Origin: Phoronis australis
Lineage: Eukaryota; Animalia; Phoronida
Length of the DNA stretch: 64,000 nucleotides
Direction: 5' to 3'
Assembly: GCA_002633005.1 (NCBI GenBank)
Contig: NMRA01000125.1
Span: 839,566-903,565 of the forward strand
Below are positions 13,972 through 38,593 of the stretch, piece by piece. The notes beneath the pieces were generated by a model. That model saw nothing but the letters and a program-made list of their open reading frames with translations, did not search any database and was not told the origin of the DNA. Every line of letters begins with the position of its first letter. Position 1 is the first letter of the stretch. A program made the translations under genes and the position numbers.

Positions 13972-15615
13972 CTGCAAAACAAATTCAAGTCACAGTGTTT
14001 GTGTCCTAAAATTCAGCATGAAGCGAGTTCCTAACAGTGCTAAATGAATCTCGTGTGTCTCATAAAAGTACAGTACGAATGTTCCTATGATGAGGTCAGC
14101 AGCAGCTGCACTGACTCCCAAGGTTGCAAGAGGCTGCTAGACCAGGATAGAGTTTTGTTGACGCAAAACTCTCACTAAGGAAGCTAGTGTGATTGCATGC
14201 TTTAAGTGCAACACATGACGATATCTCACAGTCTTGCAAGTTCTTGCTTTTCTTGCACAGAAGTCTGGAAACAAGGTCTATGCAACACATGACTGACAAT
14301 GTGGTCTGGCAACTGGTCCGAATCAAAATGAAAGAAACAAAACCAGTGACGTCATTCGTTTTCTGACAGCATGAAAACAGTGTGCACTTTACACATAGTC
14401 TTAAATTACTGAGAAGAGGGTTTGTTTGTTTGTTTATTGCAGGAAGACAAAACAGTAGAGGCGGAACATCAAACAACCAATATTCACATCCAAGATGTGT
14501 GAAACCGCAATGTGTGGCAATTCTTCACGTATCAGCACACAATGATATGGCCGGCAAGTGAAATTCTATCTTGTCAAAACTTTTCACATACAAAATTCAA
14601 GACAATTTTAATCTATTTCTGACATGTTCGGTATTGCGTAGATGTCACAAAACAACATTTGGTAAAGCTGCCACTACTTATAGGAATGGAAATCAGCCTT
14701 TGAAGACAGTTTTGGAAAAGTGCCCAAATAGGTATTAGTGTAAGCTCTGTCTTCATATCATGTTTTTACGAATTACCAGTGGGACATAAACCAGTGCAGC
14801 TGCAGGCTGCCAATCTTCCTATTTTACAGTCCTCATGGATTTTCTCATGATCAGCCTCATTTTCTCCATTGTTCTTTCCTCATCCACTACTGTATGTTCA
14901 GTTCTTACTACATGTAACTCAAACCTCAGTGTTTTCATTTGAGTTACATTTTTTTTCTCATGAATGGCGTTCTTTTCTCCCGAACAATTATTATTTCATG
15001 GGACTTCTATGATTTTGTGTAGACGTGGACGCTGCTTTATTCGTGAACAAAACTGACATCAACTAAAATTTAGAAAGGTGTCACTTTAACAATACAGTGA
15101 ATCGTTATTAAAAGTGTTTAAAATGAGTAGGAGAATGGCAACGCCAGATTTCGCTCAATGGTATAATCACGAGTGTGGATTGAGTCCCACCTCAAAATGA
15201 ATCTATATTATTAATGGCATCAATATAAGCCATCTGAAAGTAGCAATGAAAGTAGCAATGAAAGTAGAAATGACATGAGGCGTAAAACATTATGTGGAAG
15301 AACAGCGTTTTGACTAAATATGGAAACTGTGGTATGTTGAAGCAGCAAATTTTAAACTTAAACTTTCCAACTTAGAGGTAGCGAATTTGCCTATTGAAGT
15401 ACTTTATGAACTCAAAAGTGTATAATGTTATAGTATGTAATTACGAATATCCAGTCCCTGCATTAAAATCAAAAACAAAAACAAAATGTTTTCACCAAGT
15501 CATGGACCAGAACAAGTTTTCAAAGATAGCAATGCATGGGGGTTTAATATTCATGATTTGCCACACTGGCAATTGGAACAAGGTTTATTAAGTCTTCAGT
15601 AACCCGCACATTTAC

Positions 15616-15868
15616 CTGTAGTCATTAGAGCAATCAAAAACACCAACATGAATTCCAAAGGGTGCAAGTTTTTGCACCAGCTCCTTCCATTTGGAGTCCG
15701 ACAGCACAGCACCACCTGGTGGATGTACAACATGAACTAGCCAAACGCTGTCCTTGTTGTCCTCGACCCGTTCATAGAAATGTGCTCCACATGTGAAGGT
15801 AGTTGGCTGTACCTGTGTAGCGTTTTCCACTTCACTGATTGAGTTAAGTTCACCTTCTGTTGTTTCAC
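15616..15868 (-). CDS. RNF103: RNF103 exon 2 of 3
   Basis: TTTCAG acceptor and GTAAAT donor, phase 1 in / phase 2 out. Encodes FTCGAHFYERVEDNKDSVWLVHV...VQKLAPFGIHVGVFDCSND (thioredoxin-like region). Confidence 0.93.
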
Positions 15869-16630
15869 CTGAAATAATCCAGAGGAACGCAAATGCATCA
15901 TAAGTCGATATTCTCTGTCTCCGTCACAACAATACTAGAACATCGTATGATTTCTGCCAACATACATCAATCCATTAAGAAAAAAAATCTGTGACCTAAG
16001 AATGCTTATTAATGGTTGAAATCAAAAGCTGATCAACAGTCACCCCCCAGGGCTACATGCCCCATTAGAAGGGAGTGTGACACTGTCACTATAATACAGC
16101 AGTAAAAGTCACTAACAAGGGTCCTACATTTTGACAACCAGTTTTCTTCACTGAATATCAGGCATCAAGCTGGTTCTCAAAATCCAGAAACCATGTTTTT
16201 GCCAACATATGTTAATGACAGACACTCACCGTCACCATTGGCATTTTTAAATGGTCATTTAAAAATGAACCAACCATAAAGTAGTATGCCAGAAGTTATC
16301 AGACAAAATATCATTACCCTTTCAAGATCGATATATTATTGGCTGGGAAACGGAAATAAATACTATTTTTTTAACAGTCAACTTTCATAAAAGCCTGCAT
16401 ATAACTCCTTTCTCAATTCACAAATATCCTGCAGCAAAAATAGTTGAGCAATTCTCTTGTTATTTTGTTTCGTTTAATTTTGTGCCATGACATTAGTGGC
16501 ATCATCTAACTTTGGGTATCAGCCATCTAGCATACTATAACGCACTTGATGTCAACTTCCTCCTTCTTCAGACTGAAAATGATCTGAGCTTGTGTAGAAT
16601 TAACAGCAAGTTCAAGGCTAAAGACCAGGT

Positions 16631-16775
16631 TACAAGTTGGTTTAACAAGGCTGGTACAAGTTGGTTTAACAAGGCTGGTACAAGTTGGTTTAACAAGGCT
16701 GGTACAAGTTGGTTTAACAAGGCTGGTACAAGTTGGTTTAACAAGGCTGGTACAAGTTGGTTTAACAAGGCTGGT
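16631..16775. repeat. Minisatellite, 6 x 24 bp (TACAAGTTGGTTTAACAAGGCTGG), in RNF103 intron 1
   Basis: Six perfect head-to-tail copies with no spacers. Confidence 0.95.
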
Positions 16776-17532
16776 CAGTAAGATTTAAGTGTAGCCTCAA
16801 GCAGTCATGAACCACCAATTTTTCCCAGGCTCTAACAGAGCAAACTGTCAAGGCCAGATATATAACATGACAAGAAGCCCAAGTCAACAATTATTATTTT
16901 TTTAGCAAAGCCGGGTTTATAGTGCATCCTTTAACTACTTTTGAAAACGGTACTGTCTACTGAAGTGGTACTTAACATCTCTAAAGTGCAGATTGTGAAC
17001 ACTGAATCATGACTGGCATGTTCTTATCAAAGGTTGTAAAATCAAAGGTCATGAGTTCAAAAGCTGATTTAATACACCCCAAGTGTGACTCAACATTCAC
17101 TAGCTAGGGATTAATGTACGAAGGTCCCACTTTTAACATCAGTGGGAGAAGAAAGCAGTATGGTGACATGTATGAGATAAGGATAATACGCACACATGCA
17201 TTAACAACTCGGTTTAACTACAGTGTAGGTGGGGGATCAAAGAATGATGGTCCCTCAGTCTAACATCAGAATAGACTTTGGCACTGTGGTGACATCTATG
17301 GGATTAAGGTAACATGATTAGATGCAGCATTCATAATGGGCAATTCCATTTGCACAAGACAGCATCTGTGACAAGGAATTCTGGGTTATTTTGTGTGATT
17401 ACTTTTGACATGTACTGTAACGAAATTTGTCAGTTGCACGTCACGACGAAAAATAATTGATCGTAATTCCACTGCAAAATTTCACATAAAGACGACAAAG
17501 TGCAGTATGAATCTAATCAAATAGACTGTTAC

Positions 17533-17758
17533 CAGAATCATCAACTAGAGTCGACAGCTCCGATTTCTCCACAACTCCAGCATAGCTCACTCCCCTTTGA
17601 TCCAGCAGTGACTTTAACTTCTTTACGCTCAAAGAGAACGGGTCAAGGAGTTGTTTCGACCAATAGCCATTCTCGTACCACGCCACAGTTTCCAAAAAGC
17701 GGGAGAGAAAGAACAAAACAACTCCGTATAAAATGAGTAAAACAAGCTTCAACCACAT
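17533..17758 (-). CDS. RNF103: RNF103 exon 1 of 3
   Basis: MWLKLVLLILYGVVLFFLSRFLE...DPFSLSVKKLKSLLDQRGVSYAGVVEKSEL matches the RNF103 N-terminus. GTAACA donor, phase 1. Confidence 0.93.
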
Positions 17759-19071
17759 CCTATGTTAGAATAAACTCAAGAGGCGACCTCCATCAAACGC
17801 ACAGGAATCCGCAGACTTTCTCGGCGACTTGAAAGTTCACTTCGGTTTCACAATAAGGCCACGTCAGCAGCTCACAAAATCAAGTTGCAAAGCTCAAGTG
17901 ACAATTACACAATCGAAGAAGATGCAGAGTCTGCAATGACAAAACTGCTTTCACTGCTTTAAGTAATCCAGTGATGGAATCAACCGAACATTATCCATTA
18001 AAGGAATCGTGAGAAAATTCTGCGAACAGACGTCAGACATTTAAAAATGGCGACGGTCATGTGACCATAACAAAGGGAGCATTCGTTTACCCAATTTGTT
18101 CATGCGAGGAGAACAGAATATGCAATACTATCTCAGATAATAATAATGAGAAAGTGGTGCCGAAATTTTGCGAAATAACGTCTGCAAAACAGAATTACCG
18201 ACATGTTACTTACTGGCCTTCTACAGGCCCATTGCAGCAGGCACTGTGGATTATATCACTGCAAGGGGCCAACAGAGGCGATGGTCATTGCCTAGCCTCG
18301 ACCACGCTGTTCGAGGATTCCAATAGTGTTTCAATGTTTTTTTTTGTTAGCTATGACAGTTTTCACTGAAACTGCTTTACTTTCATAGCATTCTTTTCTA
18401 ATGCTTTGGTAAGCGAAACACCTCGCCGACATATGGTGTTCTGATGTTTCATCTTCCACCCATAATTTCGGGCAACAAGAGACCTGACTCGACCTCAGTG
18501 TTGTCGCGGCTATTTATATTAGCGTATCCTCAGATTCAATTGAAGATTCAAGAAGCTTTATTTAACGTCGTTCGGAGAACAGATTAACATTAGCCAGTTG
18601 GGCTATTACTACGACAGCTATTTGTATTAGCGTATGCTCAGGCCACTGTTCTGGGGGTGTATCTGATTATGACACAACATTACAATTTCTTTCATTTCAC
18701 GCTGCAGGCCACGTACGTGCACATAACACTTTTCAATACAATTTCTACTAGGTAAGAAGTATCCACAAACTCGTAGCCGCCAGCATGCCCTGAACGTTAG
18801 GTGTACTAAGTAAAAACATGACCTTGAAAGATACGTTATTCAACTTATAAGACACGGACATGATCGAGGCATAGCAAACAGCGCGATGTATATCAATGCC
18901 CCGACACCCCCACGAGGCATAGTCGCTAATCACGCCATGTAAACACTAAAGCTGGTGATAACGAGACATGCAGGTCAAAGTGTCACAGTAATCATACGTT
19001 GAAATTCAGTTTTACCGGGTCGACTCGTAGGGTGCGTAACAGTTGAGACGTGACTTGACATTTCCGGCGGT
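17759..19071. promoter_or_regulatory. Divergent (head-to-head) promoter region between RNF103 and the DyP peroxidase gene
   Basis: Start codons lie 1.3 kb apart on opposite strands. YY1-like AAAATGGCG at ~18044-18052 and ETS-like TTCCGG at ~19062-19067. Confidence 0.5.
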
Positions 19072-19123
19072 ATGGCTTTTCGTTACACAGCTAGGCTCTT
19101 TCGAGGTGCGAGGAGATTGCACG
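19072..19123 (+). CDS. DyP-type (YfeX-like) peroxidase, exon 1 of 7, mitochondrial-type presequence
   Basis: ATG...CAC G|GTATGT encodes MAFRYTARLFRGARRLH(G), Arg-rich with no acidic residues. The phase-1 donor fits the phase-1 acceptor at 22769. Confidence 0.75.
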
Positions 19124-19859
19124 GTATGTCGATGTATTCTGAGCTAAAATATCTTTGAACAATGTCTCAACTTAATAACGGGTTTCTCCCGGCTAACGAC
19201 CGAGTGGGCTTACAGAATAGACGGACTGACCTATATCTTGTTATACAAAATTCACAACAACGCATTGCCATTGGGCAGAGTGAGGCTGGCCGCTGATTTT
19301 TTTCCGAAAATGAACCGATGATGGTGCATACATGCATATGCACCATCATCGCATCAATCAATGAAATGCTTAGTCACTGAGACACGCAGCACTGGTGTCC
19401 ATGATAAGTAGACCTATATACTGACGCATAAATTTGTCCCGACGTTTCGAGTGTCGAACTTCATGGAAACGTTCCAAGTTTGTTAGTTACTAGTAGGCGC
19501 ATGTGCAACTGATGAAGTTTTCTTCTGAGCCGAATGAGCGTGCCACACTCACCGGCGTTTACGGAGCAATAATAATCTAGGACCAACATCAGTACGTTAT
19601 CACTCCTTGGTTCTAACTTGTTGCCCTTTCACTAGAGAACAACTATCCGAGATTATATATGCTCACTCAAGCCTTAATTTCTTTGCCGTGCTTTTTACCA
19701 TTTACCGGCACCTCTGTTATTTGCCGTCTTGCTTTGAAAAATGGGTTGTCCACCGTATTTGTTCAGCTTACAACCTTTTCTTGAGTCAACATTATGCAGT
19801 ATTAGAGCTATGGGTTTTCTTGTTGGCCGGATACTGCCATAGTCATTTTAGTGTAACTG

Positions 19860-20107
19860 GTGCCCGTTCCAACAAAATTGACTTAGCTAAGACAAATCTT
19901 AAATTTTAGTAAATTTTTAGATAAAACTTAAATTTGTCTCGAGACTGTTTTTAGAAAGAGATCTTAAGTTTGAATTAAGTTTTTGATAAAACTGTCATCT
20001 TCATTTTAACTATTTGACCGGATGTGGAAGTTTCAAAGAATGGAAGAGAAGACAAATCTTAGACTTAAGTCAAAAATGAACTTAAGTCAGCTTCTTGGAA
20101 CGGGCCC
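19860..20107. mobile_element. PIF/Harbinger-like MITE in DyP intron 1
   Basis: Imperfect TIRs GTGCCCGTTCCAACAA / TTCTTGGAACGGGCCC, flanked by CTG on both sides (3-bp TSD); AT-rich interior. Confidence 0.65.
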
Positions 20108-20804
20108 CTGGTCCCCAGGTCCCAGCCACATTGGCAGTGTTGACGAGTGTAGACCAACTGCAGTCTCCCTCTTGTTCATAAACCCGTTTGGAAACAGCCT
20201 CTACATGTATATTATCTTGCTGCAGATGCTCTGCGGGTCTACAGATGTACATAACAGCCTATTATTTCCAATGACTGCCTGCAGTGAAATAACGATACGA
20301 ATGGACGCTATTGAGGGCGCATATCAACAAGTGAATACGACATTTGATGCCATGTTTTGTGACAATAGGTCTACCTTGAAAACGGAATGAAAAGACGATG
20401 GCACGGTAAAGACGATTCGTGAATTGTCATTCGGCGCCGCCGCAGAGCTTCCGAAATAGTATCAATAATCATTCTCTTCTTAAGAGATTGATGCTAATTT
20501 TGAGGTCATTGTTAGCAATCGCATAGGGCGTCGTATGCGATTGAAAATAGTGAATTCCTCAGTATTAAATTGTAACATTGCATATTGTGTGATTGTGAAT
20601 TCGAATATTCAGCAGACTGCCGATAAGGGTCTCATTTTATTATCTGAGCAGATATATTCATATTGTAGCTGTTTATCTGCACCAGGGCTACTACATGTCG
20701 GACTACCGAGACAGTGGGTGCCGGGACATGCTGCTATGATGGGTGTTTTTATTTTCTACTCCCACGTTCCATTTAGTTCCGATTTAATATCCCGTGAACA
20801 TTAG

Positions 20805-20961
20805 GACTACAAAAATGCACAAAACCGCATGTCCTCACTTGCATTCTCTTACAATTACCCCGGTTCAAAAGTTTTTTGAGGTACCTCTGTTAAGGCTAAT
20901 TTTTAACGATTATTGTAGGGAATGCAAGGACGCGTGGCTTTGGGTGTATTTCGTATAATCT
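20805..20961. repeat. Degenerate ~50-bp inverted repeat (decayed MITE)
   Basis: Left arm ...GTCCTCACTTGCATTCTCTTACAAT pairs imperfectly with right arm ATTGTAGGGAATGCAAGGAC... Confidence 0.45.
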
Positions 20962-21160
20962 GGATCAAAAATCTTGATTCATTTTGGTGTATAGAATACA
21001 AAAAAATTCGGTTAAATTTCAATTTAGCATGGAAATTTCAGACTCCGTGTTGATCCTGTTCCGACTTTATTTGACATGTGATAAATTTTCGGTTCCGCTG
21101 CCGCGGTATATTTTCAATCCTGTTAAATTTTAGTCACGACGTGACTAGTTATGGGTCCTG

Positions 21161-21518
21161 TGCCTGGTTGCATGAAACAGTCCCAAATTGTGACTCGGCT
21201 AAGTTCCCTACTCTTGTGCGTGTTTTTGTCGTTCTTTATTCACAGACGGGTCCTTTCACTATGACTTTATCGCTGTTACATGTATAAGCTTCTCTTTGAC
21301 AAGTTACATTTTCTAATTATATAACTAAAATCTGAGCCCTCGGTTTCATGAAAATAAATAGGGACTTGGTCTTCAGATTTGCATCAAAGCCAAAATTGAC
21401 TTAATAATGAAATTAAGGCAGCATAAGTAAGGACAATGAGTGTTTTCACTAGTCTACAAATACACTGTAGATTTACGGAAATTAGTCCTTGTTTGGGACT
21501 GTTTTATGCAACCAGGCA
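21161..21518. mobile_element. MITE with 27-bp TIRs in DyP intron 1
   Basis: TGCCTGGTTGCATGAAACAGTCCCAAA at the left; the reverse complement of the right end is TGCCTGGTTGCATAAAACAGTCCCAAA (26/27 match). No ORF inside. Confidence 0.75.
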
Positions 21519-22121
21519 TTGGCGTGACCAATTCTGGTTTTGAGCTTTTTTTGATTTCAGAGATTTTAATTCTTGAATAGAAAATGTCCTGGGATTTTTC
21601 CGCTTCGGCTTTCCATAGTCTCAGACCTATTATGTGCAGTGGTGGCCAAGGTGTCCTCTAGCCTATCAACTCTTTATACACAACTGATCAGACCTGGCAA
21701 TACCAACGAATGTCGGTAGCCTGGGACTTGGATAAAATTTACTATCGATATGCAAACCGCATGTACATGTAAACATGCAAGTAGCCCGCTGCGTACAGTG
21801 AATGGAAACTAGTTTCACTTCGCTGCTCTGCAGACATGATCGAATAATTATGCAGTATTTTAGTTACCTTTCACACCGATTGCCGGTTGTAAAAATAGTA
21901 CAGGCATCTGCGTTCCCAAGTGACACTACTCATGCCGTACACTACATTTAGCCTGCTGGTCGCTGATGACAGTCGGATCCCGCCATCTGGTGGCTGGCAT
22001 GCCGAGCCTGGGTTCTCTTTACTTACCCAACCCAACGTGTGCTTCTGGAGTTGGTGGAGTAACAATACGATTATAATTTCTAATTTCTTCAAAAACAAGT
22101 TTATGCAGCAATTTCCTAACC

Positions 22122-22242
22122 GATGAACTCTCACGATTTATATTTTCATAGGATTGCCTTTGTAAGATCGTTAAATTTCCCAGCGGATGAACTCTCACGA
22201 TTCATTTCATACGTTTTCCTGTGTAAGATCGCTAAATTTCCC
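22122..22242. repeat. Degenerate ~65-bp tandem duplication
   Basis: GATGAACTCTCACGATTT...GTAAGATCG.TAAATTTCCC occurs twice. Confidence 0.7.
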
Positions 22243-22768
22243 GCAAAAAATCTGAAAATACACGTCGGTATACCTGGAAGGAAATCTGATGATCTCTTCA
22301 GTGGTCTAAGAAATGGTAAATGTTCTTTGAAGGCAAAGTCCGGGAATTTTTAATATTGTGGGATGTGCCAGGATTTACAGTGACGTACCGGATGTCTGAA
22401 TTTATTTTTTGGAAACCAATTAGTCGAAATTCGAACATTCCTGAAACCGAAAGGGGAGGTCACAATCGATCTCGATTGTTGTATATGCTTTCATTACCCA
22501 TAATGCCTTGTTTCAGCCGGCATTATTAGTGTCAAATCTAACGCAGTCTCTCATTGGCTCATTCGGCATGTCACACAAACTCAAAAACAAGTAATGGACA
22601 TCTAACTCGACAACCCCACCTTCGTTTTTGAAGCGGGAATGTTCCGTACAAAAAGCGATCTTTTGATTTAGACTATTTACTGCTGTGAAATTGGTCTCAA
22701 ATTGTATCTTATACGTTGTCTTTATCGGTGTCTAAGCTCGGTATTTGTGATATTAACTTGTTTTCAAG

Positions 22769-22941
22769 GTGCGGGACGAAGTATAAGCACGAAAACACCC
22801 GAAGCGCGCTTCGCCGCCTTTCGCCCTCTTCTCGTCGGAGGAATAGCTGCAGGTTACCTTGGTTACAAACTCTTCACTGAAGAGGTGCCTCCCATCGTCA
22901 GCCAGGTTCATGCCGCAGAAGCTGCTTCGCCTCAGCCTTCA
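22769..22941 (+). CDS. DyP-type peroxidase, exon 2 of 7 (rest of presequence and hydrophobic segment)
   Basis: TTTTCAAG acceptor and GTAAGT donor, phase 1 in / 0 out. Encodes AGRSISTKTPEARFAAFRPLLVGGIAAGYLGYKLFTEEVPPIVSQVHAAEAASPQPS. Confidence 0.85.
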
Positions 22942-22974
22942 GTAAGTTGCTTGCCATCATGATAACACTTGAGT

Positions 22975-23066
22975 CAGTGCTTGATTTGGCGACCTGCAGG
23001 TCGCCAATATGACTTCAGATTGTGTTTGGCGACCTGGAAAAAATTTCAAGTCGCCACGAACCACTG
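22975..23066. mobile_element. Small CAGTG...CACTG element containing a perfect 22-bp palindrome
   Basis: Termini CAGTG/CACTG; TTGGCGACCTGCAGGTCGCCAA at 22986-23007; a second TTTGGCGAC...GTCGCCA hairpin follows. Confidence 0.5.
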
Positions 23067-24019
23067 CAAGTATCATTGTCAGACAATTATTCCCTCTAAA
23101 TTCGTTTCAAAGTTGTAATTCACTTTCAAAGTTTAATTTACTACCAGTTTTCTTAGATTCATTACTTTTGATTCACAATTGTTCCGTTTATTTCGTGAAA
23201 TCAGCGCATTTGTCACCACGTTTAAATTACAAAGGGAGTAGTAAACAGACGGAAGTCGGAATTGTTCGGCAAATGTCGGACAAGATCGACGATATTCGCC
23301 AACAACCCCTGCAGTCTTCTGCGTGCTATGTTGACTACCCGTCGATGGGAGGAATTGAGTTAGAGAATTAAGGTGATTTAGGCATATACGGGGGAAATTG
23401 GAAAAGCGCAAGAGAATGGGCGGCGGACAACCGTAGGCCGCGTTTTTGGTCGACGACCTGTTACGCTGGATAGGAATCCTCGCCTGAGGTCTTCACTTTT
23501 GATGACCTCAGCAAAATGCAACTTGGCTTTAGCTAAGCGTCGAGCGCCGTAAGTGTAGGTTTCTCCCTAAGAAATTCGATGAACTCGGTGTGTAAAATGT
23601 TAGTGTTACCAATCTACTCGTTTTAAGTGCACTTAGTTTGGATCTTGGTGAGGAGAGACATGTTTGCACACTACGGGCTTGCTGTAACGCGGTTCGGCTA
23701 GCCTACATTACATACGTTGTGCCATTTTCGCGTGATCACTTCGTGTAACCCTCTTGTGAATTCACGGGACGCCAGATTCCATGTGGGACAGGTCCCAACT
23801 AGACAAGAGATTCCTATCCGTGTATGCCCTAACTGACTAATAATCAAATGGCGCTATGCCGAAATTTCTGCAATGAAGATGTGCTTCTTTGTTTTATCGA
23901 TTCCAAAAAAACACTTTAAAAGCTATTGGTAACATGATTTTCAGTTTGCTGGTGAGTACAAACACTGTTTCTATCACAATCATTCCAATGAGCTCATTTA
24001 TCACTCAAACAACTCACAG

Positions 24020-24214
24020 GTGATCTCTGGCACAAAGGATCACGCCTTGTACCTAACCATCTACCTTAAGCCAACCGCGGACGTGAAAGCTTGTGTGAAA
24101 GTCCTGGCAAACCTGCAGAAGTCGGTGAGCTCTCTCTTCGACCCGAGCACCCCTCCCGATGATGACGACGAAGTTTTGGCCGGTGTCGGGTTTGGTCCCA
24201 ACACCTGGTCACAG
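24020..24214 (+). CDS. DyP-type peroxidase, exon 3 of 7 (copy 1)
   Basis: CTCACAG acceptor and GTAGGT donor, 195 nt, phase 0/0. Encodes VISGTKDHALYLTIYL...VLAGVGFGPNTWSQ (DyP N-terminal domain). Confidence 0.88.
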
Positions 24215-25200
24215 GTAGGTCTTGGAACAACCAATTTATTTAAACTTTTACACAAACCCGCCTCAGTCGTCAAAGGTAACTTTTGATTNCGTTTCAAAGT
24301 TGGTATTCACTTTCAAAGTTTGAGTTACTACCAGTTTTCTTAGATTCATTACCTTTGATTCACAATTGTTCCGTTTATTTCGTGAAATCAGCGCATTTGT
24401 CACCACGTTTAAATTACAATAGGGAATAGTAAACAGACGGAAGTCGGAATTGTTCGGCAAATGTCAGACAAAATCGACGAAATTCGCCAACGACCCCTGC
24501 AGTCTTCTGTGTTGACTACCCGTCGATGGGAGGAATTGAGTTAGAGAATTAAGGTGATTTAGGCATATACGGGGGAAATTGGAGAAGCGCAAGAGATTGG
24601 GCGGCGGACAGCCGTGGGCCGTTTTTTTGGTCGACGACCTGTTACGCTGGATAGGAATCCTGCCTGAGGTCTTCACTTTTGATGAGCTCAGCAAAATGCA
24701 ACTTGGCTTTAGCTAAGCGTCGAGCGCCGTAAGTGTAGGTTTCTCCCAAAGAAATTCGACGAACTCAGTGTGTAAAATGTTTAGTGTTACCAATCTACTC
24801 GCTTTAAGTGCACTTAGCTTGGATCTTGGTGAGGAGAGACATGTTTGCACACTACGGGCTTGCTGTAACGCGGTTCGGCTAGCCTAAATTACATACGTTG
24901 TACCATTTTCGCGTGATCACTTCGTGTAACCCTCTTGTGAATTCACGGGACGCCAGATTCCATGTGGGACAGGTCCCAACTAGACAAGAGATTCCTATCC
25001 GTGTATGCCCTAACTGACTAATAATCAAATGGCGCTATGCCGAAATTTCTGCAATGAAGATGTGCTTCTTTGTTTTATCGATTCCAAAAAAACACTTTAA
25101 AAGCTATTGGTAACATGATTTTCAGTTTGCTGGTGAGTACAAACACTGTTTCTATCACAATCATTCCAATGAGCTCATTTATCACTCAAACAACTCACAG

Positions 25201-25395
25201 GTGATCTCTGGCACAAAGGATCACGCCTTGTACCTAACCATCTACCTTAAGCCAACCGCGGACGTGAAAGCTTGTGTGAAAGTCCTGGCAAACCTGCAGA
25301 AGTCGGTGAGCTCTCTCTTCGACCCGAGCACCCCTCCCGATGATGACGACGAAGTTTTGGCCGGTGTCGGGTTTGGTCCCAACACCTGGTCACAG
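25201..25395 (+). CDS. DyP-type peroxidase, exon 3 (copy 2, likely assembly duplicate)
   Basis: Identical to 24020-24214, including splice sites. Confidence 0.8.
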
Positions 25396-26659
25396 GTAGG
25401 TCTTGGAACAACCAATTTATTTAAACTTTTACACAAACCCGCCTCAGTCGTCAAAGGTAACTTTTGATTTAGGTCCTGGCACAGCAACACGTCCATATTG
25501 CGGTATTTACCCACAATGCTAAAACATCTATCAAGCAATTTTCTACCCTCATTTTCGCGCCATTGGAGTTTCGTATGTTAATTATTGGTGCCTAGCTTTT
25601 TTCAAACTTTTCTAGACTGCTTATAACGGTATTCGTTGTTCCAATAACAGAGACGCTTTACTCCTGTGCTGCCGGCTGCAACTTCGACTGCAGGAAGTTG
25701 GATAAACTTGAGAATATCCGTGGATGCGATATTTTCCCACGACGGTGATTACTAGAATTAGTTAAACGTTTTTAAAACGAGTCCAATGTAACTATGCGTG
25801 TTCTTGCCTCCAGGTGAAAAGAGATTTCTATCGGGGCCGTCCTATGCTCAGCCTTGAGCTCATTTCTGGACTTGTAGTGCGTACATGTGGTGTCAAAACC
25901 AGCTGGGTAGTTACACGGTCGTTACGCTTCATACACGGAACATAGCCGGCCTGAAAGAACTCAACAGGCTGTTGTGACAAAATAAGTTGAGAGCAAAATT
26001 TCAACGGTAAATGGAAGTACTATAAAACAAACGTTCTTTGACAAAATGTAGGTTTGCAGCGAGCTGCCTTAAGTAGTGTTGACTGCGCACCTTAAAGTTA
26101 TGGAGGACCTGGAAAAACTGTCCGATTTTGGCCAACTTCGGAACATCATATCTCAGAAATGGCTGATAGATTTACTTGAAACTTTCAAAAATTATACTGT
26201 AGTTTGCCTTGGCGGCAGATTTTCTTGTCCACAAACAGTAAATAAGCTATTTTGATCGGAAGAATTGCTTTCAATCTACCTACGTGAATACCAGACAGGA
26301 ATTTGAGTCGCCAATTGGAAAGAACGCAACTGGAGCTGGTCAAAAACACCACTAGTCGTTTATTCAATATGATTGTTTTTAAAATATTGGACTTCAATGA
26401 AAAAACGTTAAAGTTGTAGAAAACGAAAACGATATGGCATTTGAGAAATTTAACTGTAACGACGTTTTTAAGATATTACTTTGAACATCATGTTATTGAT
26501 TCTGTTGTTTTGCTCAGTTATCAATGTGCATTTTGCCAAAGACATAGTCACGTGACCCAATTAATGGCATATTGGTAGAAAGCCAAAAGTCAAGTATGAC
26601 AGACTTTCTGTTTTCAAAAAATAGATACTTTTACTGTATTAAAATTTATAGTTTTTCAT

Positions 26660-26896
26660 AAGCGCACCGGCCAAGCCTAAAAAATGGGGGCTCGAATTTT
26701 TGAGAAAGTGGACCTTTTACTAAGATTAACAGAGTAGAGCTATGAATTGTGCATTCGCGGAATTTTGGTAGTTCCTGACTTTAGCGGACTTTTGTATCGT
26801 TTTCTGCTTTTTTCGGAGGTTTTGTTTCTCTGAGGCCGACTTTCTCCCCCCTTCGCCAATGGGGAGGGGGCTCGAGAGCCCCTGATTGCGGGCATG
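26660..26896. mobile_element. Degenerate copy of the CATGCGCGCACC MITE family, reverse orientation
   Basis: GGGGGCTCGAATTTTTGAGAAAGTGGACCTTTTAC is the reverse complement of the 8877-9135 core. Confidence 0.6.
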
Positions 26897-27882
26897 TTTT
26901 TAGCTATTAGGTTAAATGCAATTCTATGCCTTACATAACATTATTGAACAGGGCTGCAAGCACCGTTATGCCGTGGTACTGAGTAAAGCTGTCCCTTGCC
27001 CTCACAGAACGTACGGCCGCACTTAAAATGATAAAGATGATCTCGTATTGTTCGTCCTACATTCTCCCCGCATTGCCAAACCAAACTTTCAACAGAAGAG
27101 TTTTTGAAAGTATTGATTTGCTTTTATAACTATATACCACGTGTATTTCACGTGGATAATGTGCCGATATGATACAGTATGTCCTTCAAACACTACATGG
27201 TCGAATAATGGGTAATCACAGCCTAATGTGGCCAGGCTGCGCTGTTCTTATGTTGAATTTGATTCAACACCAGAACAGATGGTCAAAAAAACAAGAAAAC
27301 TGCTATCCACAAGCTGCACGAGGTCTTCTGCTCCAATTAGGCCCCCTACTGTGTGCAGCGATACCAACAGGGGACAGACCTACACGTATGAATTATTAGC
27401 TAAATATGTGTCTCACACTTGAGATTTGAGTCTTCGTTAGCCGTGCTATTCACTTTCCAAGAAGTTTTGCCTACGTCATAGACCTGAGACTCGTGTAGAA
27501 TTCTCATTCTCTATGTCTAAGCCTTTTTCACCAATTGTGAAGTGAGAACGTAAGATCAAGTACTTGTCTTGAGCAGTAAGTCATTCCTCAGAAGCGGACC
27601 ACAGAGCAAGGAAACCTTAACGGTGCATATGTTCGACCGTAAATTGTTCTAAAAATTCCGTTTCTCAACACTACTGCGTGTGCGTATACGCACTTGTTTT
27701 AAAATGCACAAACCACATGTAAGTTTTTAAGATTTATTCTTTCCTTGAAGCAGAGTGCGTGCATCTTGGAAGTGGTAGAATTTGCATTTATTTTTGCAAA
27801 TACAGGCACTTGCCCCACAGTGCTGAAGTCGTGACTCCTCTGCTCTTTCCATTGCTGTTCAAGTACGCGAAACTTTTGACAG

Positions 27883-28120
27883 GTTGTTGGTAAAAAGACC
27901 CTGAAGAACTACACCTATCCCCACCGCAAGGGTGCACTTGGGGACATGCCGAGCACTGGCGGAGATTTGTTTGTGCACGCCAAGTGCCATAAGAAAAGCA
28001 AACTGTTCGAGCTGACGCAAAAACTAATGAAAGAGTTGCCAGCCGGAAGTGTAGACCGATTCGAGGATGTCTACGGCTGGGTGTACCAGGAGGGTCGTGA
28101 CTTGTCCGGCTTTATTGATG
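27883..28120 (+). CDS. DyP-type peroxidase, exon 4 of 7 (distal Asp motif)
   Basis: TTTTGACAG acceptor and GTAGGT donor, phase 0/1. Encodes VVGKKTLKNYTYPHRKGALGDMPSTGGDLFVHAK...GRDLSGFID(G), containing the DyP GXXDG motif. Confidence 0.93.
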
Positions 28121-29164
28121 GTAGGTAGTTTCTTCTTATATATATCGGGCTTAAACTGGCTTGAAGTTGCCTGGGGTTCTTTATTCAATTCCCCGTTTGG
28201 GCCTCTAAAAGTAGAATTCCCAGGGTGTTCTGTTCCAAGCCACCCCTCAGTTAGTTGACAACCCCATTAAAAGTAAAAGCCTCGCCCGGTAAAGTGATGT
28301 AGGACCTTATCGACCAGTCGGTGCAAATATGTATATGCACATCCAACTGTGGGATATAACACAGTGAGAGTACGGTATATATTTTTATGAAAGTAGAAAG
28401 CCTGCAGAACTTGTTTTTTTTTTGAATTTTAACAAATTCTGCAATCACTGTCGAGGAAACATGTCTTTTAATAAGTGAAGCAAACCAAGAAAGGAACATC
28501 CATAACAAAATAATCGTATCAATGACATGGCCATGTGGTCGTAAATTTTATATGATAGTTCAAAAACCCTGGTACAGTTTTCTAAAATATCATTTATTTA
28601 TTGCAACTTTTGATTTATTCATAAAAATCATAAAAGTCCTATTTTCATATCTCCTGTTCCAGAAGCGGAACATTTTAAAAACATTTCGTATTATGGTTTG
28701 TTGTAGAAGGGTATATGAAATCCTAAGTATGTGAAAGTTTCATATGGTTCCGATGAGTAATTTCTGAGCTATGATGTTGCGAAGTTAGCCTTATTTGGAC
28801 ATTTTTCCTACATAAGCTGAAGTTTGGTGCAGTTGACTGAATTTTCATGTTACATGTATAACGTGGTCAGGCTACTGTGTTCACATGTTGAAATTGTTCC
28901 AGTTGCCTAGGTGTCAGTGCTGTGCATCTACGTTTAAACCCGCTTGAAAAGTGTTCCATTGCTTTTAGGGGTTACACTGTCTTTCGTGTTGGTTTAAAAC
29001 AGCGGTTTAACTTGAAAACCAGAGTAAATAACATCCGTGGCATAAGTGTGGGATTCATGTCGTTAAGTGGAGACTGGGTGCGAAATCCATCGTTGTTTCA
29101 TCGTTGATGCGCCATTAGAAGTGGTGAGATTACTCCCAATGTTTATCTTGATTTCACAATTTAG

Positions 29165-29238
29165 GTACCGAGAACCCAGCGGACGAGGAACTGCGCTATA
29201 ACGTTGCCGTGGAGAAAGAAACTGGTGGAAGTTATGTG
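29165..29238 (+). CDS. DyP-type peroxidase, exon 5 of 7
   Basis: TTTTAG acceptor and GTAAGC donor, phase 1/0. Encodes (G)TENPADEELRYNVAVEKETGGSYV, completing DGTENP and GGSY. Confidence 0.92.
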
Positions 29239-29538
29239 GTAAGCCTGCTAAAATAGACATTAACATGTTGATCTTTGAGTTAAGAAACGACAAGATTTCC
29301 TCTAGCAATGTGCTACATCCGGGACAACATGATGGAGGACACTTTCCTTACCAGAGACTCTCGAGTGCAAAAATGATCAATTGCATGGTTTAAGTTTTCA
29401 GGCCACGCGACTAGTCTTGAGTCAAATGTCGAGGTTGGTGGCATGGGATCCAAGAGTTTTCAAAAGATTATGATGGTTTGAATTGAGAGGGAACCTGTTT
29501 GGAATGTTTGTCATCAGATCAATTGGCGTTTTCTTTAG

Positions 29539-29683
29539 ATCACGCAGAAATGGATACATGATTTCAACGTCATCAACAAGACACCAACCAAACAACTGGA
29601 GCAGTTTGTTGGAAGATCTAAAGAAGACAGCGTGGAACTGAGACGGAAAGCTGCGTCGGCGCATGTGGCCCGCATGACCGGAG
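29539..29683 (+). CDS. DyP-type peroxidase, exon 6 of 7 (proximal His)
   Basis: TTCTTTAG acceptor and GTAAGT donor, phase 0/1. Encodes ITQKWIHDF...EQFVGRSKEDSVELRRKAASAHVARMTG. Confidence 0.92.
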
Positions 29684-29974
29684 GTAAGTTAAAGTTTCCT
29701 GATGCCATTCTAAGTGAGAGACAACCGTTTCACAATGTCAGTATGCGAACCCTCATTTATCGTAGGGCACTTAGCTTCAATTATTAGTGCCCTGGACCTT
29801 GTATTCAACTACAAAAGTGTAAAAATCAAGTTTCCCGCATAATGTGTGCGTTTACTTGATTGAGCGAATGCTGACAGCATCACCATCGCCGACTCACTAT
29901 TGAACCGTATTTGCAACCACTTCAACACTTTCCACTGCTTTCTCTTCATATCGACTTTTCTATTATCCATACAG

Positions 29975-30225
29975 GTACCAATTTCGTGCAGAAGAAAGCG
30001 TTTCAAATCGTCCGCCAATCCCAGCCGTACGGCACGGTTAACGGGGAAGCGGGTCTGTTCTTCATCGGATACGCTGCGTCTCCGGAGAACTTCGAATTCA
30101 TGCTCGATCGCATGGTAGGTGCTGGCGGTGACGGCCACAACGATGACATCATGAAACTCACGGTTTGCGTGAAAGGAACCTATTGGTACTTTCCCAGCCT
30201 TCAGCAGTTGAGAAGTATGGCGTAG
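29975..30225 (+). CDS. DyP-type peroxidase, exon 7 of 7 (distal Arg, C-terminus)
   Basis: CATACAG acceptor, phase 1. Encodes IVRQSQPYG...GLFFIGYA...MLDRMVG...DDIMKLT...GTYWYFPS, then TAG. Joined CDS is 1128 nt (375 aa). Confidence 0.93.
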
Positions 30226-30423
30226 AGAGTTGGGAAATTAGCAATGCACATGGCCAGGATGTCCCCAGACAGGGTTAATTATATGAAAATTTTTATGGAT
30301 GTTAATTGTTCTAATCATTTGTATATCGTTTTCATTATTGGCTGCAGCATTTGTTATGAAAACTTCTCATTACTTTGTTATCGTAACAAATTCGTTGTTT
30401 CTAGGCATACTAATCCAGAGAAA

Positions 30424-30502
30424 TGTGGTCCAGCGTATTATGTACAGTGTTGTCCCAAGTACATGTGCTCCAGCGTAGTGTGTACAGTGTAGTCCCAAGT
30501 AG
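30424..30502. repeat. Degenerate ~39-bp tandem duplication in the DyP 3' UTR
   Basis: TCCAGCGTA...TGTACAGTGT.GTCCCAAGTA occurs twice. Confidence 0.6.
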
Positions 30503-30666
30503 GTACAATGTCCAATGTCTGGTATCACTAGTCCATGTGCAAACGGCTTACGTGCAGTGCTGTTTAAGTCCAACTTCACGAAACGTAATATCGTTATATT
30601 CTATAACATTGAATGTGTTGCGCACCTTTCTGTCCTCTGTATTGTGTTTAATAGACAACGTTCCAA

Positions 30667-30672
30667 AATAAA
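30667..30672 (+). terminator. Putative polyadenylation signal of the DyP gene
   Basis: AATAAA ~440 nt after the stop codon. Confidence 0.5.
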
Positions 30673-32162
30673 GGGAACTTTTGAATAAGTTTCCGCGTTG
30701 TTCCTAACTTGGAGTCCTACATACAATGCTCTCTCTCCGTTTACAACAATGCACCATGTCATGCACCATCAGTCCTGTAGTCCATCGAATACGCTCTTGA
30801 TGAACGCCAATAAGGAAACTGTAATTTAAATTGCCTATACTCATCCCGAACATCTCCGATATTTTCGTATACTCAAATATCCCCTCGGAGTTGAACGTTA
30901 TCTCCTCATGTGCTGATTAAATTGTCAAACCTTTCCTTGGTGAATGATTGAAGGTACAGTATGAGTGAACTAGCTCGTATACGAACAGATAATTTTCATC
31001 TTCGAGAGGAATGAATACGGGGCTGCAGAAATATCCGAAGTGTTCCGGATGTCCCATGGAGTTACTCCTAAACGACCCATTTTTGCTGATGGGCCCAGAC
31101 CACCTAAACTTTCCATAGACTGTAAAAATTGGCAAGTCACGTGTCATGCTTTGAGTGAAGGTTCACATCCCTAGCAACTTTATGATTGGTCAATTTTCGA
31201 CTAGTCTAGTATGGTGTAGCCTGAAGTTAAGTTGTCGCGGTCACGGGTCCAGCAGCAGCTAACATGTCAAAACACACATAAGAAGAACAATAACAATGTT
31301 TTACTCGAGACCAAAGTTGTAACATGCACACAATTCGATATTTTACACACTGCTGTGTTAAAGGAAACAGTCATGCTCGCTGTATGAGATAGATATATAA
31401 ACGAAAATCAACAGGCGAGGGTCATTCTAGATTTTTTCTGTCGCCATTGGGGGCGTGTGAAAACAAATTTCTCACAAATTCTCACCGTCTCCCGAATCCC
31501 CCGTTGATTGTACAAGAACGCATACAACTGAATTAACTTGAGGTTGTTTGTTACATGTATATGCTTTAACGCCACAACACAATAATTATTGGGTCATAGT
31601 CCGGGGCGGGGGGGGGGNGGTTGGCAATCCCACCGCCGATTCTGGCAAAACCGAAAGAAAAAAAACTTGGCGTCGGAGCATCTAGTGAGAAAATACGGTG
31701 AAATTGGTAACGGGGGCGAAGTTGGTAGCGACCGGGGTAGGGGTGAAATTCTTCCACTGCTCTTGGGCAGTACTATTCTATAGGCGGACGAAAAGCCAAG
31801 AGCAGATACGTTCGAGTGGAAACATTACACGTTTCGACCCTGGCCAGATAAGTTGTGTCCTTATAGATGTATCTCCTCCGCTCCGCTCTTCTGTTCTAAT
31901 AATCTCTTTGAGTAGCTAGTATTGAAACTCTGTATTGTTTAACACCGGACTTTCGACCATAGCCAGCTCATACAAACGGTGTATAACGCATACTGATTAT
32001 CCACGGTACTACGATCAATACATGGAGTCGACAAAATCAAGAACTTAATCTGCTGCAACGATGCTGCAAAACCAATAGGATGTGCCCAGATATAACTTTC
32101 CATAACTATCATATCAATGTTGACTTTACTAAGTTCAGCTGCGCTCACGTGCTCATTCAATA

Positions 32163-32701
32163 CTAGTCAACTTTATGTTCGTCAAGTTTGTTTATGTCTG
32201 TTTGCATTTTGGCGCGCAAAGCGAATGCCTGCCTGCCAATCTCCATATTCGTCTGCGAAAAGTCAATAACGTCACCGCCGTCAATGTCCTCCTCAAACAC
32301 TTCAGCAGTGAGGACACTAGAGAGATCTTTTTCTCCAACTCCCTGTTTGTCCACAGCATTTGCTATTGAACCATTTATGTTATATTGAGAATAAAATATG
32401 CCTATAATATCACCGCGTTTCACTTTAATTCTATCCGCCGTGTTGAGTTCCACGTATTGAGTCTGAAGCGCGTGAGCAGGTGGAAGTTCATTTTCACCCA
32501 CAAGCTTGAAACCATAGGTTTGCTCACCGGTTTTCCTCCACACGCTTACGTTGGCGCAGACTTTTGTATCGCGTGGAAAGTACTCCCATGCTATGACTTC
32601 GCCATCTGTCGGAAATGTCCATTCCAACATCAATCTCAGCCAATTGTTTCCTAAATTGGGCAGAAACTCCGGCGCCCTCCCGACGTAGATTGTCTTCATT
32701 T
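32163..32701 (-). CDS. Uncharacterised protein, terminal exon encoding a ~180-aa beta-rich domain; 5' exons unresolved
   Basis: Long protein-like ORF (MKTIYVGRAP...LEWTFPTDGEVIAWEYF...VSVWRK...FKLVGENEL...DRIKVKRGDIIGIFY) preceded by a good acceptor TATGTGTTTTAG. ATG at 32699. Confidence 0.7.
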
Positions 32702-33404
32702 CTAAAACACATAAATGAACACGTCGCATTACATAACTTTGGATTACTGGTAACATTTGCCATCTAATACATCGACATTTATGTCAACACGACACACGAG
32801 GAGTGTAAGCTTTATGCAAAGTGCAAGTTTTTGGTTTTGTAACTTTTTCAAACAGCGCACACGGATTTCATTGAACCGACTTCGAGCGTGAAGTGCATGC
32901 TCGGTATGATTTATCACTAACAGCAGCGCCAATAGGGGGTGCACATATCGCATAATTTGTAATTCCTGAGCATGATCCACTCGCAAATGAAAAGCAAAAT
33001 GGTACATCGCCGTGGCTGTCATACCCTGTGTCCTCATCTGTTGTAGCCGGTTTTGAAATTAATCTGAGTGTGATGACTATGAAGCATGTGACATGTCGTA
33101 AGATTAAATCTGCTGTAAATGGAAGGCAAGGTTGGGTACTCCGTGTATTATAGTCTAGGGTGCCAGCGAACACATTCGAAGGAGGGTATTTACCCCCAAT
33201 ACACTTAAACTGTGAATATGTGCATGAAATTCCCCGAATGAGTAAAATCGAGGCGCGATTTTTAAAATATCAAGTGAATGAGATCTGATTTAGCCTTTAC
33301 AAATTTACTGTTGAAAAGTATTTTTAAATATGAAGAAAGCCGTACCGCACACAAAGAGGATTGTCCTGTGAAACTCAGTTAGATGTATGCAAAACATACT
33401 TTGT

Positions 33405-35763: not shown

Positions 35764-36053
35764 TGTGACGGGACGTTCGTAACTACGCTTATTGTTATTC
35801 TTATTTAGTTGCAAATGTTCAGTTATTCTTATGCTAATGTCTTTGTTGCGTCTCTGTTCGCCTTTGTTACGGGGGCATGTGGGCGCGACTGTATGTGTCG
35901 GGCACTTCGCTAGCGACAGGCTTAGGAGAAGGGTGTTTCCTTCTTTTGCTTTCATGGAAAGTTGATCGTTATCATGTGCAAATTGAACTGAAACGAATGC
36001 CTGATGAGAGAAAATACATATTCTGAAGTCCAGTGGAGACTTACTCTGTTACA
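35764..36053 (+). repeat. 5' LTR
   Basis: TGTGAC...GTTACA, 290 bp; matches 38771-39060 base for base by eye. Confidence 0.95.
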
Positions 36054-36055
36054 TT

Positions 36056-36068
36056 TGGCGCCCAACGT
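36056..36068 (+). other. Primer binding site (tRNA-Lys CUU type)
   Basis: TGGCGCCCAACGT starts 2 nt after the LTR and matches the first 13 nt of the canonical Lys1,2 PBS TGGCGCCCAACGTGGGGC. Confidence 0.85.
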
Positions 36069-36522
36069 AAATCGAACAAACCAGAACTTTTCTCTGACGA
36101 CGTCTGTAAAATTATGACCGTGCTACGGCCTTGCATGGAAAGTTGAACTGCTTGCTGACTTTACAAGACTTATGTCGCGACTCGGGTAAGAATTTTCTGG
36201 AAAGGACAATGTCTTAATTTGCTACTGTGGTCACAAGTTCGTGGTGGTGTCTGGAACGGATCCTCGTGCTCGCCAAGAACGGAACTTTCTGGACTATGTG
36301 TTTGACGACGCCCTATCCTGCAGGAAACTGGACTCAGTTGCATTTTGTGTCACTGAAAATGTTTTGTGTTACTGTTGTTTGACATAAGTTCACTTGATGT
36401 GCCGGGTATTGAGAGTTCTTTAATTTCTTAAGCTAGTGTATTTTCATGCTGTAGGTCGAGTTATCTCACATTATTGGGGTGATTCTAAGTTTGTTCATGT
36501 TCCGTATATTTCATCCTTTGTC

Positions 36523-38425: not shown

Positions 38426-38593
38426 AGTATCATAGGGAGGAATAAAATTCAGAATGCATTTGGTTCAGTTCCTTATCACATTGTCTCTCGGAGAAATAAT
38501 GTGTATTCTGTGCGGGCGGCAGATGGTGCCGGACCGATTAAAACTGTAAATAGGTCGGAGATCTTGGATGGTAGGGACTTGGTAGGTCTGTAG
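38426..38593 (+). CDS. pol: Retrotransposon pol C-terminus (integrase GPY/F-like tail), partial
   Basis: GRNKIQNAFGSVPYHIVSRRNNVYSVRAADGAGPIKTVNRSEIL resembles the Gypsy integrase C-terminal module and lies just upstream of the PPT and 3' LTR. Confidence 0.7.
   Translation, partial: SIIGRNKIQNAFGSVPYHIVSRRNNVYSVRAADGAGPIKTVNRSEILDGRDLVGL

What the first reader, a model, noticed from the sequence alone, without database searches (positions are those of the whole stretch)
19072..30225. Intact, 7-exon YfeX-like DyP haem peroxidase embedded in an animal genome
Seen: exons 19072-19123, 22769-22941, 24020-24214, 27883-28120, 29165-29238, 29539-29683 and 29975-30225 join through six GT-AG introns with matching phases into a stop-free 375-aa protein. 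It has all DyP hallmarks: RDLSGFIDGTENP (distal Asp), GGSYV.QKW.H, VGRSK, SAHVAR (proximal His), IVRQSQPYG (distal Arg) and GTYWYFPS. Established: these motifs closely parallel E. coli YfeX (class B/P DyP); DyPs are characterised in bacteria, fungi and Dictyostelium and are absent from vertebrate and insect models. Introns and the flanking RNF103 and MRPL43 genes argue against contamination. Inference: an essentially uncharacterised animal peroxidase or porphyrinogen-oxidase system, from old horizontal transfer or patchy retention. Automated YfeX-like annotations probably exist in other invertebrates, so the novelty is functional rather than first sighting.
Basis: partly seen in the sequence, partly recalled or inferred. 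Interest (0 to 1): 0.85.

Follow-up and report, generated by a model that had tools for sequence, protein, structure and literature searches.

The report
Invertebrate mitochondrial DyP haem peroxidase
This spliced, expressed gene encodes a bacterial-type haem peroxidase of a family already known from many invertebrates, and its conserved leader peptide is predicted to send it into the space between the two mitochondrial membranes, where it likely removes hydrogen peroxide.

Summary
Seven exons join through six GT-AG introns into 375 codons, and RNA reads cross all six joints. All DyP haem-site residues align with E. coli YfeX (34.7% identical).

It is not a first sighting. Animal DyPs are the published subclass P1 (PMC9719856). 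A tapeworm member has been shown to bind haem and to have peroxidase and catalase activity (bioRxiv 2022.11.07.515413).

They encode an Arg-rich, acid-free presequence, a Gly/Ala-rich hydrophobic stretch and a V-H-A|A site: the layout of a two-part signal for the mitochondrial intermembrane space. The pattern recurs across invertebrate phyla and some protists. A published mussel gel spot fits the cut form.

Animal sequences nest among protist DyPs, and grouping them with YfeX is rejected. Old eukaryotic inheritance with losses is therefore likelier than transfer into animals.

Location is predicted, not shown: the Naegleria counterpart is missing from a published mitochondrial proteome list. 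Searches of this scan's notes found no earlier report of this gene type, only DyP-PFL fusions elsewhere in this genome.

The parts
19016..19071 (+). 5' UTR; transcript start about 19016-19024, no upstream ATG in it
   Evidence: 15 molecules end at 19024 in X4; X1 contig starts at 19016; sequence
19072..19123 (+). Exon 1 (aa 1-17): Arg-rich, acid-free start of the predicted mitochondrial presequence
22769..22941 (+). Exon 2 (aa 18-75): predicted MPP-type site R21-S-I-S, Gly/Ala-rich hydrophobic stretch (about aa 37-52), predicted second cut V64-H-A66|A67; the DyP domain starts at aa 73
   Evidence: cut sites are inferred
24020..24214 (+). Exon 3 (aa 76-140): start of the first ferredoxin-like domain, with acidic loop D122-E126
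25201..25395 (+). Identical second copy of exon 3 in a 97%-identical block (24286-25469); likely assembly duplicate
27883..28120 (+). Exon 4 (aa 141-220): ends in GFID, distal Asp219 of GXXDG
29165..29238 (+). Exon 5 (aa 220-244)
29539..29683 (+). Exon 6 (aa 245-293): proximal His286 and Arg289
29975..30225 (+). Exon 7 coding part (aa 293-375): distal Arg306, Ser308, Leu320, Phe322, proximal Asp349; stop
30226..30685 (+). 3' UTR with AATAAA at 30667

Best explanation
A spliced and transcribed host gene encodes an intact class P (subclass P1) DyP haem peroxidase whose 72-residue leader is predicted to be a two-part mitochondrial signal, so the enzyme likely sits in the intermembrane space and likely removes hydrogen peroxide there. 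Steps: (1) shown: splicing, expression and all haem-site residues. (2) Inferred from a relative: haem binding, peroxidase and catalase-like turnover, as measured for EmDyp; Asp219 and Arg306 would form Compound I on a His286-bound haem. (3) Inferred from sequence: import through TOM/TIM23, a matrix peptidase cut near R21, arrest of the hydrophobic stretch in the inner membrane, and release of a 309-aa, 34.1-kDa enzyme by an IMP-type cut at A66|A67. (4) Speculative: the electron donor. I favour a second H2O2 or reduced cytochrome c (the conserved acidic loop D122-E126 could dock it) over porphyrinogens. (5) Inferred from trees: inherited from a single-celled eukaryote ancestor and lost in several lineages. 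Odds by step: active DyP 0.95, mitochondrial 0.85, released into the intermembrane space 0.7, peroxide removal as main job 0.7.
For: Residues: one search aligns D219/H286/R306/S308/L320/F322/D349 with YfeX D143/H215/R232/S234/L246/F248/D274; among 125 aligned sequences D219, H286 and R306 are each kept in 124. Fold: a model of a 61%-identical relative (P0007) has low confidence over residues 1-70, then a confident domain that matches class P DyP crystal structures, best E 9.5e-27, target TM-score about 0.85. Leader, in 92 of 125 sequences with a Met start and a 45-110 aa extension: 79 of 92 have no Asp/Glu in the first 25 residues (2.45% of 25,479 domain 25-mers do). R-x-[FLYI]-[ST] occurs in 43 of 92 (1000 shuffles: mean 15.7, max 27). 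The hydrophobic stretch starts at median residue 36, at or after 19 in 89 of 92. [VLI]-x-A-A occurs just before the domain in 70 of 92 (shuffles: mean 4.8, max 15). A combined rule, set after seeing the data, is met by 16 of 17 named animal rows from six named phyla plus the window and by 5 of 9 protist rows. 15 of 15 bacterial-type rows have extensions of 0-10 aa. These features match the published description of two-part presequences, MPP Arg at -2/-3 and IMP sites with a hydrophobic -3 residue (PMC8835746, passages). Processing: the Mytilus protein P0066 computes to 42.1 kDa, pI 8.86 uncut and 33.9 kDa, pI 6.03 after the A|A cut; a DyP spot in Mytilus edulis gill was observed at 30.4 kDa, pI 6.00 (PMC5302490). 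Only one 5' joint is seen, so the leader is on the main transcript. Origin: animals are one clade (SH-aLRT 99) whose nearest rows are protist sequences; forcing animals with the YfeX/Vibrio group is rejected, p-AU 3.4e-07, and with a second bacterial group, 3.9e-06.
Against: No localisation experiment exists in what I could read. The leader-bearing Naegleria gruberi DyP (XP_002676075) is in neither sheet of the published N. gruberi organelle proteome table (946 mitochondrial, 78 peroxisomal; PMC8134430 supplement 5); the full 4198-protein list was not in what I searched, so non-detection cannot be told from another location. No TargetP/MitoFates-type predictor and no set of known intermembrane-space proteins was available as a positive control. 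The 92 sequences are related, so the counts are not independent, and 33 rows were dropped, among them schistosome paralogues with short, more hydrophobic N-ends. The mussel spot was identified by two peptides against a Trichoplax entry, runs 3.5 kDa below the computed mass, and a cut right after the hydrophobic stretch gives the same pI (36.6 kDa, 6.04); an ER signal-peptidase cut at the same site would give the same spot. EmDyp's authors read the N-terminal helix as a secretion signal. The 33 leader-clade eukaryote rows have only 82 support as one group, the careful tree did not finish, and many deep rows are unnamed.
Confidence: 0.6

Rival explanations
1. The leader is an ER signal or signal-anchor and the enzyme is secreted or on the cell surface, defending against outside peroxide (the reading proposed for EmDyp).
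For: One N-terminal hydrophobic helix and a V-x-A|A site that signal peptidases of this family also accept (recalled); EmDyp authors' interpretation; Naegleria counterpart absent from the mitochondrial list; the mussel spot fits either route.
Against: The hydrophobic stretch starts at median residue 36, within the first 12 residues in only 3 of 92, is 46% Gly+Ala, and follows an Arg-rich acid-free stretch with an MPP-type motif. Other DyPs in the set do look like classic secreted proteins (P0125, P0132: hydrophobic from residue 3-4, extension 21-24 aa) and differ clearly. The EmDyp claim rested on a predicted helix only.
Confidence: 0.1
2. Mitochondrial, but in the matrix or left anchored in the inner membrane, with no release into the intermembrane space.
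For: The hydrophobic stretch is weak (best 15-residue Kyte-Doolittle mean 1.45 in the window protein) and might pass TIM23; the second site is only a motif.
Against: The [VLI]xAA motif is far above shuffles and lies 6 residues before the domain in 54 of 79 cases. An MPP-only cut of the mussel protein computes to about 39.4 kDa, pI 6.9-7.2, unlike the observed 30.4 kDa, pI 6.00.
Confidence: 0.15
3. Same location, but the main job is oxidising protoporphyrinogen or coproporphyrinogen, as a peroxide-driven side route of haem synthesis.
For: YfeX oxidises both porphyrinogens in vitro (PMC3215433, passages); the late haem steps of animals take place at the intermembrane space and inner membrane (recalled).
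Against: Animals have a dedicated protoporphyrinogen oxidase (recalled). A Trichinella sequence is in the animal clade although nematodes are described as haem auxotrophs (recalled, not checked for this species). Not assayed for EmDyp in the text I read.
Confidence: 0.12
4. A recent transfer from bacteria into this lineage, or a contaminant or chimeric scaffold.
For: Best solved relatives are bacterial; coding GC is higher than in the RNF103 last exon (0.53 against 0.43).
Against: Six spliced introns used in RNA of the same species label; 50-66% identity to DyPs of many invertebrate phyla against about 35% to YfeX; AU tests; the best bacterial loci found are 26-37% identical to the query's first sequence (10 loci).
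Confidence: 0.02

Closest known systems
DyP subclass P1 (Yoshida and Sugano, PMC9719856; read parts 1-3 of 4, all of the main text)
   Same: Animal plus Amoebozoa, Excavata and SAR members; class P domain of about 300 aa; conserved haem residues. My trees recover an animal clade among protist rows.
   Different: That study cut out the DyP domain before analysis and says nothing in the text I read about leaders or location; it calls P1 unexplored.
EmDyp of Echinococcus multilocularis (bioRxiv 10.1101/2022.11.07.515413; whole text read, supplements not seen)
   Same: Flatworm member; about 36% identical to YfeX; longer isoform has an N-terminal hydrophobic helix; haem-binding, peroxidase and catalase activity.
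   Different: Has two 5' splice forms, whereas one 5' joint is seen here. Its helix was read as a secretion signal. I did not have the EmDyp sequence; the cestode Rodentolepis protein shows the presequence-type leader.
E. coli YfeX and Klebsiella KpDyP (class P/B)
   Same: 34.7% identity over 291 aa, E 1.4e-45; same seven haem-site residues; same fold.
   Different: Cytoplasmic, no leader, no introns; lacks the acidic loop; YfeX is reported to have no catalase activity; not the direct source of the animal genes.
Dictyostelium DyPA (PMC8230527, passages)
   Same: Eukaryotic class P DyP with the same catalytic set.
   Different: Intronless, no leader, cytoplasmic, subclass P4 rather than P1.
Yeast cytochrome c peroxidase Ccp1 (analogy; location and role recalled, processing listed in PMC8847149)
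   Same: Works like: a haem peroxidase with a two-part signal in the intermembrane space that removes H2O2.
   Different: Unrelated fold and superfamily; matured by m-AAA and Pcp1 rather than IMP; cytochrome c as donor is untested here. Not a member of that family.

Membership tests
DyP-type peroxidases | Pfam Dyp_perox domains | tested here: met
   exons 6 and 7 each pass the PF20628 cut-off; exon 4 hits PF04261 below cut-off; 4 of 4 full-length relatives pass PF20628.
DyP-type peroxidases | GXXDG with distal Asp | tested here: met
   G216-F-I-D219-G220 aligns with YfeX G140-D143-G144.
DyP-type peroxidases | Proximal His with partner Asp and Arg; distal Arg and two hydrophobic residues | tested here: met
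   H286, D349, R289, R306, L320, F322; numbering checked against DyPA residues and KpDyP variant titles.
DyP-type peroxidases | Two ferredoxin-like folds | tested here: met
   By proxy: model of P0007 (61% identical), mean pLDDT 77, matches class P DyP structures. The window's own joined protein was not folded.
DyP-type peroxidases | Haem binding and H2O2-dependent oxidation | not testable with these tools
   Shown only for EmDyp.
DyP subclass P1 | Placement in the animal/protist clade apart from bacterial P subclasses | tested here: met
   The paper's own reference set was not used; the match is by taxon content.
Intermembrane-space proteins with two-part signals | Positively charged, acid-free presequence with Arg at -2/-3 | tested here: met
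   6 Arg/Lys and 0 Asp/Glu in the first 25 aa; family counts against shuffles.
Intermembrane-space proteins with two-part signals | Hydrophobic sorting stretch followed by an IMP-type site | tested here: inconclusive
   Stretch and V-H-A|A present and conserved; fits the hydrophobic -3 rule but not the yeast Imp1 N|D/E motif; no known substrates available as control.
Intermembrane-space proteins with two-part signals | Experimental location in mitochondria | tested here: inconclusive
   Only a literature check: the Naegleria counterpart is not in the published list; nothing found for animals.
Cytochrome c peroxidases (Ccp1) | Peroxidase-catalase superfamily fold | tested here: not met
   All listed fold matches are DyPs.

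The most novel reading that the evidence does not exclude
Subclass P1 DyPs are an overlooked, ancient peroxidase of the mitochondrial intermembrane space, present before animals split from amoebae and Naegleria-like protists, kept in most invertebrate phyla and lost in vertebrates and insects. They would do for these animals what cytochrome c peroxidase does for yeast, and have a sister branch aimed at peroxisomes.
Probability: 0.45. Interest if true: 0.72.

Novelty: new member of a known kind. Interest (0 to 1): 0.5.

Why it matters
The gene as such is one more member of a published subclass. The leader reading is what would matter. It would place a haem peroxidase in a compartment where animal mitochondria are not described as having one (recalled), in molluscs, annelids and flatworms, many of which face swings in oxygen. 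It would correct the 'secreted' reading of the one studied animal DyP, and it would turn a supposed bacterial import into an old mitochondrial component that vertebrates lost. It can be tested with a GFP fusion and an import assay.

Tried and rejected
No whole genome is held for this window, so copy number, haem-pathway genes and IMP genes were not checked, and intron positions could not be compared with other animals.

One search listed no indexed RNA holder; the reads came from runs added by species label.

The identity of the animal is not settled. The nearest named protein is from the bryozoan Watersipora (68% over the domain; sister, unresolved under the mixture model), so 'probably a lophotrochozoan' is as far as it goes.

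Exon-3 tandem duplication as a real feature: rejected. An alternative first exon without the leader: none among the joints listed.

Literature: ten searches. The six that paired a DyP/YfeX or bivalve term with a mitochondrial term listed no paper whose title, abstract start or read passages place a DyP in mitochondria; the four papers listed were not opened, and subscription journals are mostly missing from the library. The Andalucia predicted mitoproteome paper has no 'DyP' in its main text (supplements not searched). One Naegleria oxidative-stress paper is not held. Dreissena and Rapana proteome papers list a YfeX-like protein with no location (one passage each); the Dreissena entry gives 27.0 kDa, pI 5.7, lower than the predicted mature form, and I did not check whether those values are observed.

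The taxon number on one MMETSP record resolves to a land fungus, so I left that row unassigned. No complex prediction was run: no cytochrome c sequence was on hand. The careful tree did not finish and was not resumed; 28 of 77 rows were left out of it, mostly long branches, paralogues and near-duplicates.
Full report
Observation. The seven exons join as stated into 375 codons with six GT-AG introns. Raw RNA reads from three runs of one study cross all six joints on the expected strand, and one assembled contig from another study spans all exons and both UTRs. The transcript starts near 19016-19024, about 1.3 kb from the start codon of the RNF103-like gene, which points the other way. Expression varies: depth at 27930 is 52, 56 and 268 in runs of similar size. 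Exon 3 is present twice, in a 97%-identical block that meets its twin at a single N; the MRPL43 region shows the same pattern at N 61128, and no read joins the two copies. I treat it as an assembly duplicate.

What it is. Exons 6 and 7 pass the Pfam Dyp_perox_C cut-off on their own. The joined protein is 34.7% identical to E. coli YfeX over 291 residues and keeps D219, H286, R289, R306, S308, L320, F322 and D349. A model of a 61%-identical relative matches class P DyP crystal structures, with residues 1-70 outside the folded domain. A profile search gave 608 proteins at E up to 1e-20, of which 120 were listed; named ones come from molluscs, annelids, a brachiopod, a nemertean, bryozoans, flatworms, hemichordates, a priapulid and a placozoan. 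Trichinella, acanthocephalans and a partial sponge entry came up. No vertebrate or insect name is among the listed rows, which agrees with PMC9719856, but the lists are capped.

What is already in print. PMC9719856 (main text read) defines subclass P1, mostly animals with Amoebozoa, Excavata and SAR, and finds none in tunicates or vertebrates. PMC4420034 (passages) proposed that Schistosoma gained its DyPs by transfer from lower eukaryotes. The Echinococcus preprint (whole text) shows haem binding, DAB and luminol oxidation, catalase activity, no RB19 activity, and more than 150-fold higher expression in host liver; it reads the N-terminal helix as a secretion signal without testing it. So the family is known in animals and one member has been assayed.

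The leader. Bacterial-type rows start at the domain (15 of 15 have 0-10 extra residues). The window protein has 72 extra residues on exons 1-2. Of 125 aligned sequences, 92 had a Met start and a 45-110 residue extension; 33 were dropped as partial, shorter or longer. In the 92, residues 2-26 are 15.2% Arg and 0.8% Asp+Glu, against 4.6% and 13.4% in the domain; 79 have no acid in the first 25 residues; an MPP-type R-x-[FLYI]-[ST] motif occurs in 43 (shuffle mean 15.7, max 27); a Gly/Ala-rich hydrophobic stretch starts at median residue 36; and [VLI]-x-A-A lies just before the domain in 70 (shuffle mean 4.8, max 15). This is the layout described for two-part signals cut first by MPP and then by the inner membrane peptidase (PMC8835746 and PMC8847149, passages). 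A rule set after the fact is met by 16 of 17 named animal rows and 5 of 9 protist rows; all 26 have at least two basic and at most one acidic residue in the first 25 residues or before the hydrophobic stretch. Computed values for the Mytilus protein are 42.1 kDa, pI 8.86 uncut, about 39.4 kDa, pI 7 after an MPP-only cut, and 33.9 kDa, pI 6.03 after the A|A cut. A mussel gill DyP spot was observed at 30.4 kDa, pI 6.00 (PMC5302490, passages). That supports removal of the leader but does not name the compartment.

Against. The leader-bearing Naegleria gruberi protein is not in either sheet of the published organelle proteome table. A different N. gruberi DyP, ending in -SRL, is in the 83-row sheet that matches the 78 peroxisomal proteins. 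No trained predictor or positive-control set was available. The sequences are related, so the counts overstate independence. Some schistosome paralogues and a few other rows have other N-ends, including classic signal peptides, so the family is not uniform.

Origin. In a 77-row tree (LG+G4, quick) 25 animal rows form one clade (99), joined first by a EukProt row (96), within a 53-row group (98) that holds all 10 named protist rows and none of the 10 named bacterial rows. A 49-row mixture-model tree agrees on the animal clade (99) and its protist neighbour (97) (quick search, careful one unfinished). Constrained trees joining animals to either of two bacterial groups are rejected. The wider leader-bearing group has only 82 support. 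Inheritance from a single-celled ancestor with losses is the simplest reading; transfer from a protist into early animals is not excluded, and the ultimate source is presumably bacterial.

Mechanism, committed. The precursor is likely imported, cut twice and released as a soluble 34-kDa haem enzyme between the mitochondrial membranes, where it reduces H2O2 through Compound I. The donor is open. Catalase-like turnover has precedent in EmDyp. Cytochrome c is a guess based on location and an acidic loop (D122, E/D123 and D125 acidic in 101 or more of 125 rows) that YfeX lacks. Porphyrinogen oxidation has precedent in YfeX.

Verdict. The mitochondrial reading was not found in the searches listed under Tried and rejected and is cheap to test. 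Interest 0.5.

Noticed in passing
window 23100-25469 and 59868-62376: Two tandem blocks (1.19 kb at 97%, 1.26 kb at 96%), each meeting its twin at a single N (24289, 61128); they duplicate DyP exon 3 and part of the MRPL43-like gene. Likely allelic assembly duplicates.
   Followed up: partly
P0159, P0162, P0178, P0181, P0306: DyPs near the base of the eukaryotic group end in peroxisomal-type tripeptides (-SKL, -SRL, -CKL, -SHL). A Naegleria gruberi DyP nearly identical in its N-end to P0159 is in the peroxisome-sized sheet of PMC8134430. Suggests a peroxisomal sister branch.
   Followed up: partly
P0125, P0132, P0140, P0192: Some DyPs near or in this group have classic secretion-type signal peptides instead of the presequence.
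   Followed up: no
P0017, with P0128, P0130, P0131: A divergent animal paralogue group (P0131 is from Plakobranchus), three of the four with about 110-residue leaders; P0017 has lost the distal Asp of GXXDG.
   Followed up: no
window 12330-17758 (-): RNF103-like RING E3 gene head-to-head with the DyP gene, start codons about 1.3 kb apart; expressed in the same runs. Synteny in other animals not testable here.
   Followed up: partly
window 35762-39062: Identical 294-bp direct repeats (35762-36055, 38769-39062) flank an ORF with a weak PNMA (gag-like) hit just under the Pfam cut-off, and a 958-base N gap: probably a recent LTR element.
   Followed up: no
window 32163-32783 (-): 206-codon open frame with protein-like make-up and no Pfam hit; probably an exon of an unidentified gene.
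   Followed up: no
window 16631-16775: Short tandem repeat in an RNF103 intron, 24-base unit judged from the repeated translation.
   Followed up: no
P0129, P0240, P0221: Long entries carrying a DyP domain: a Trichinella model named as a phosphate transporter (likely two genes merged), a 655-aa protein with an actin-like N-end (recalled likeness), and an 817-aa protein that groups with the YfeX side.
   Followed up: no
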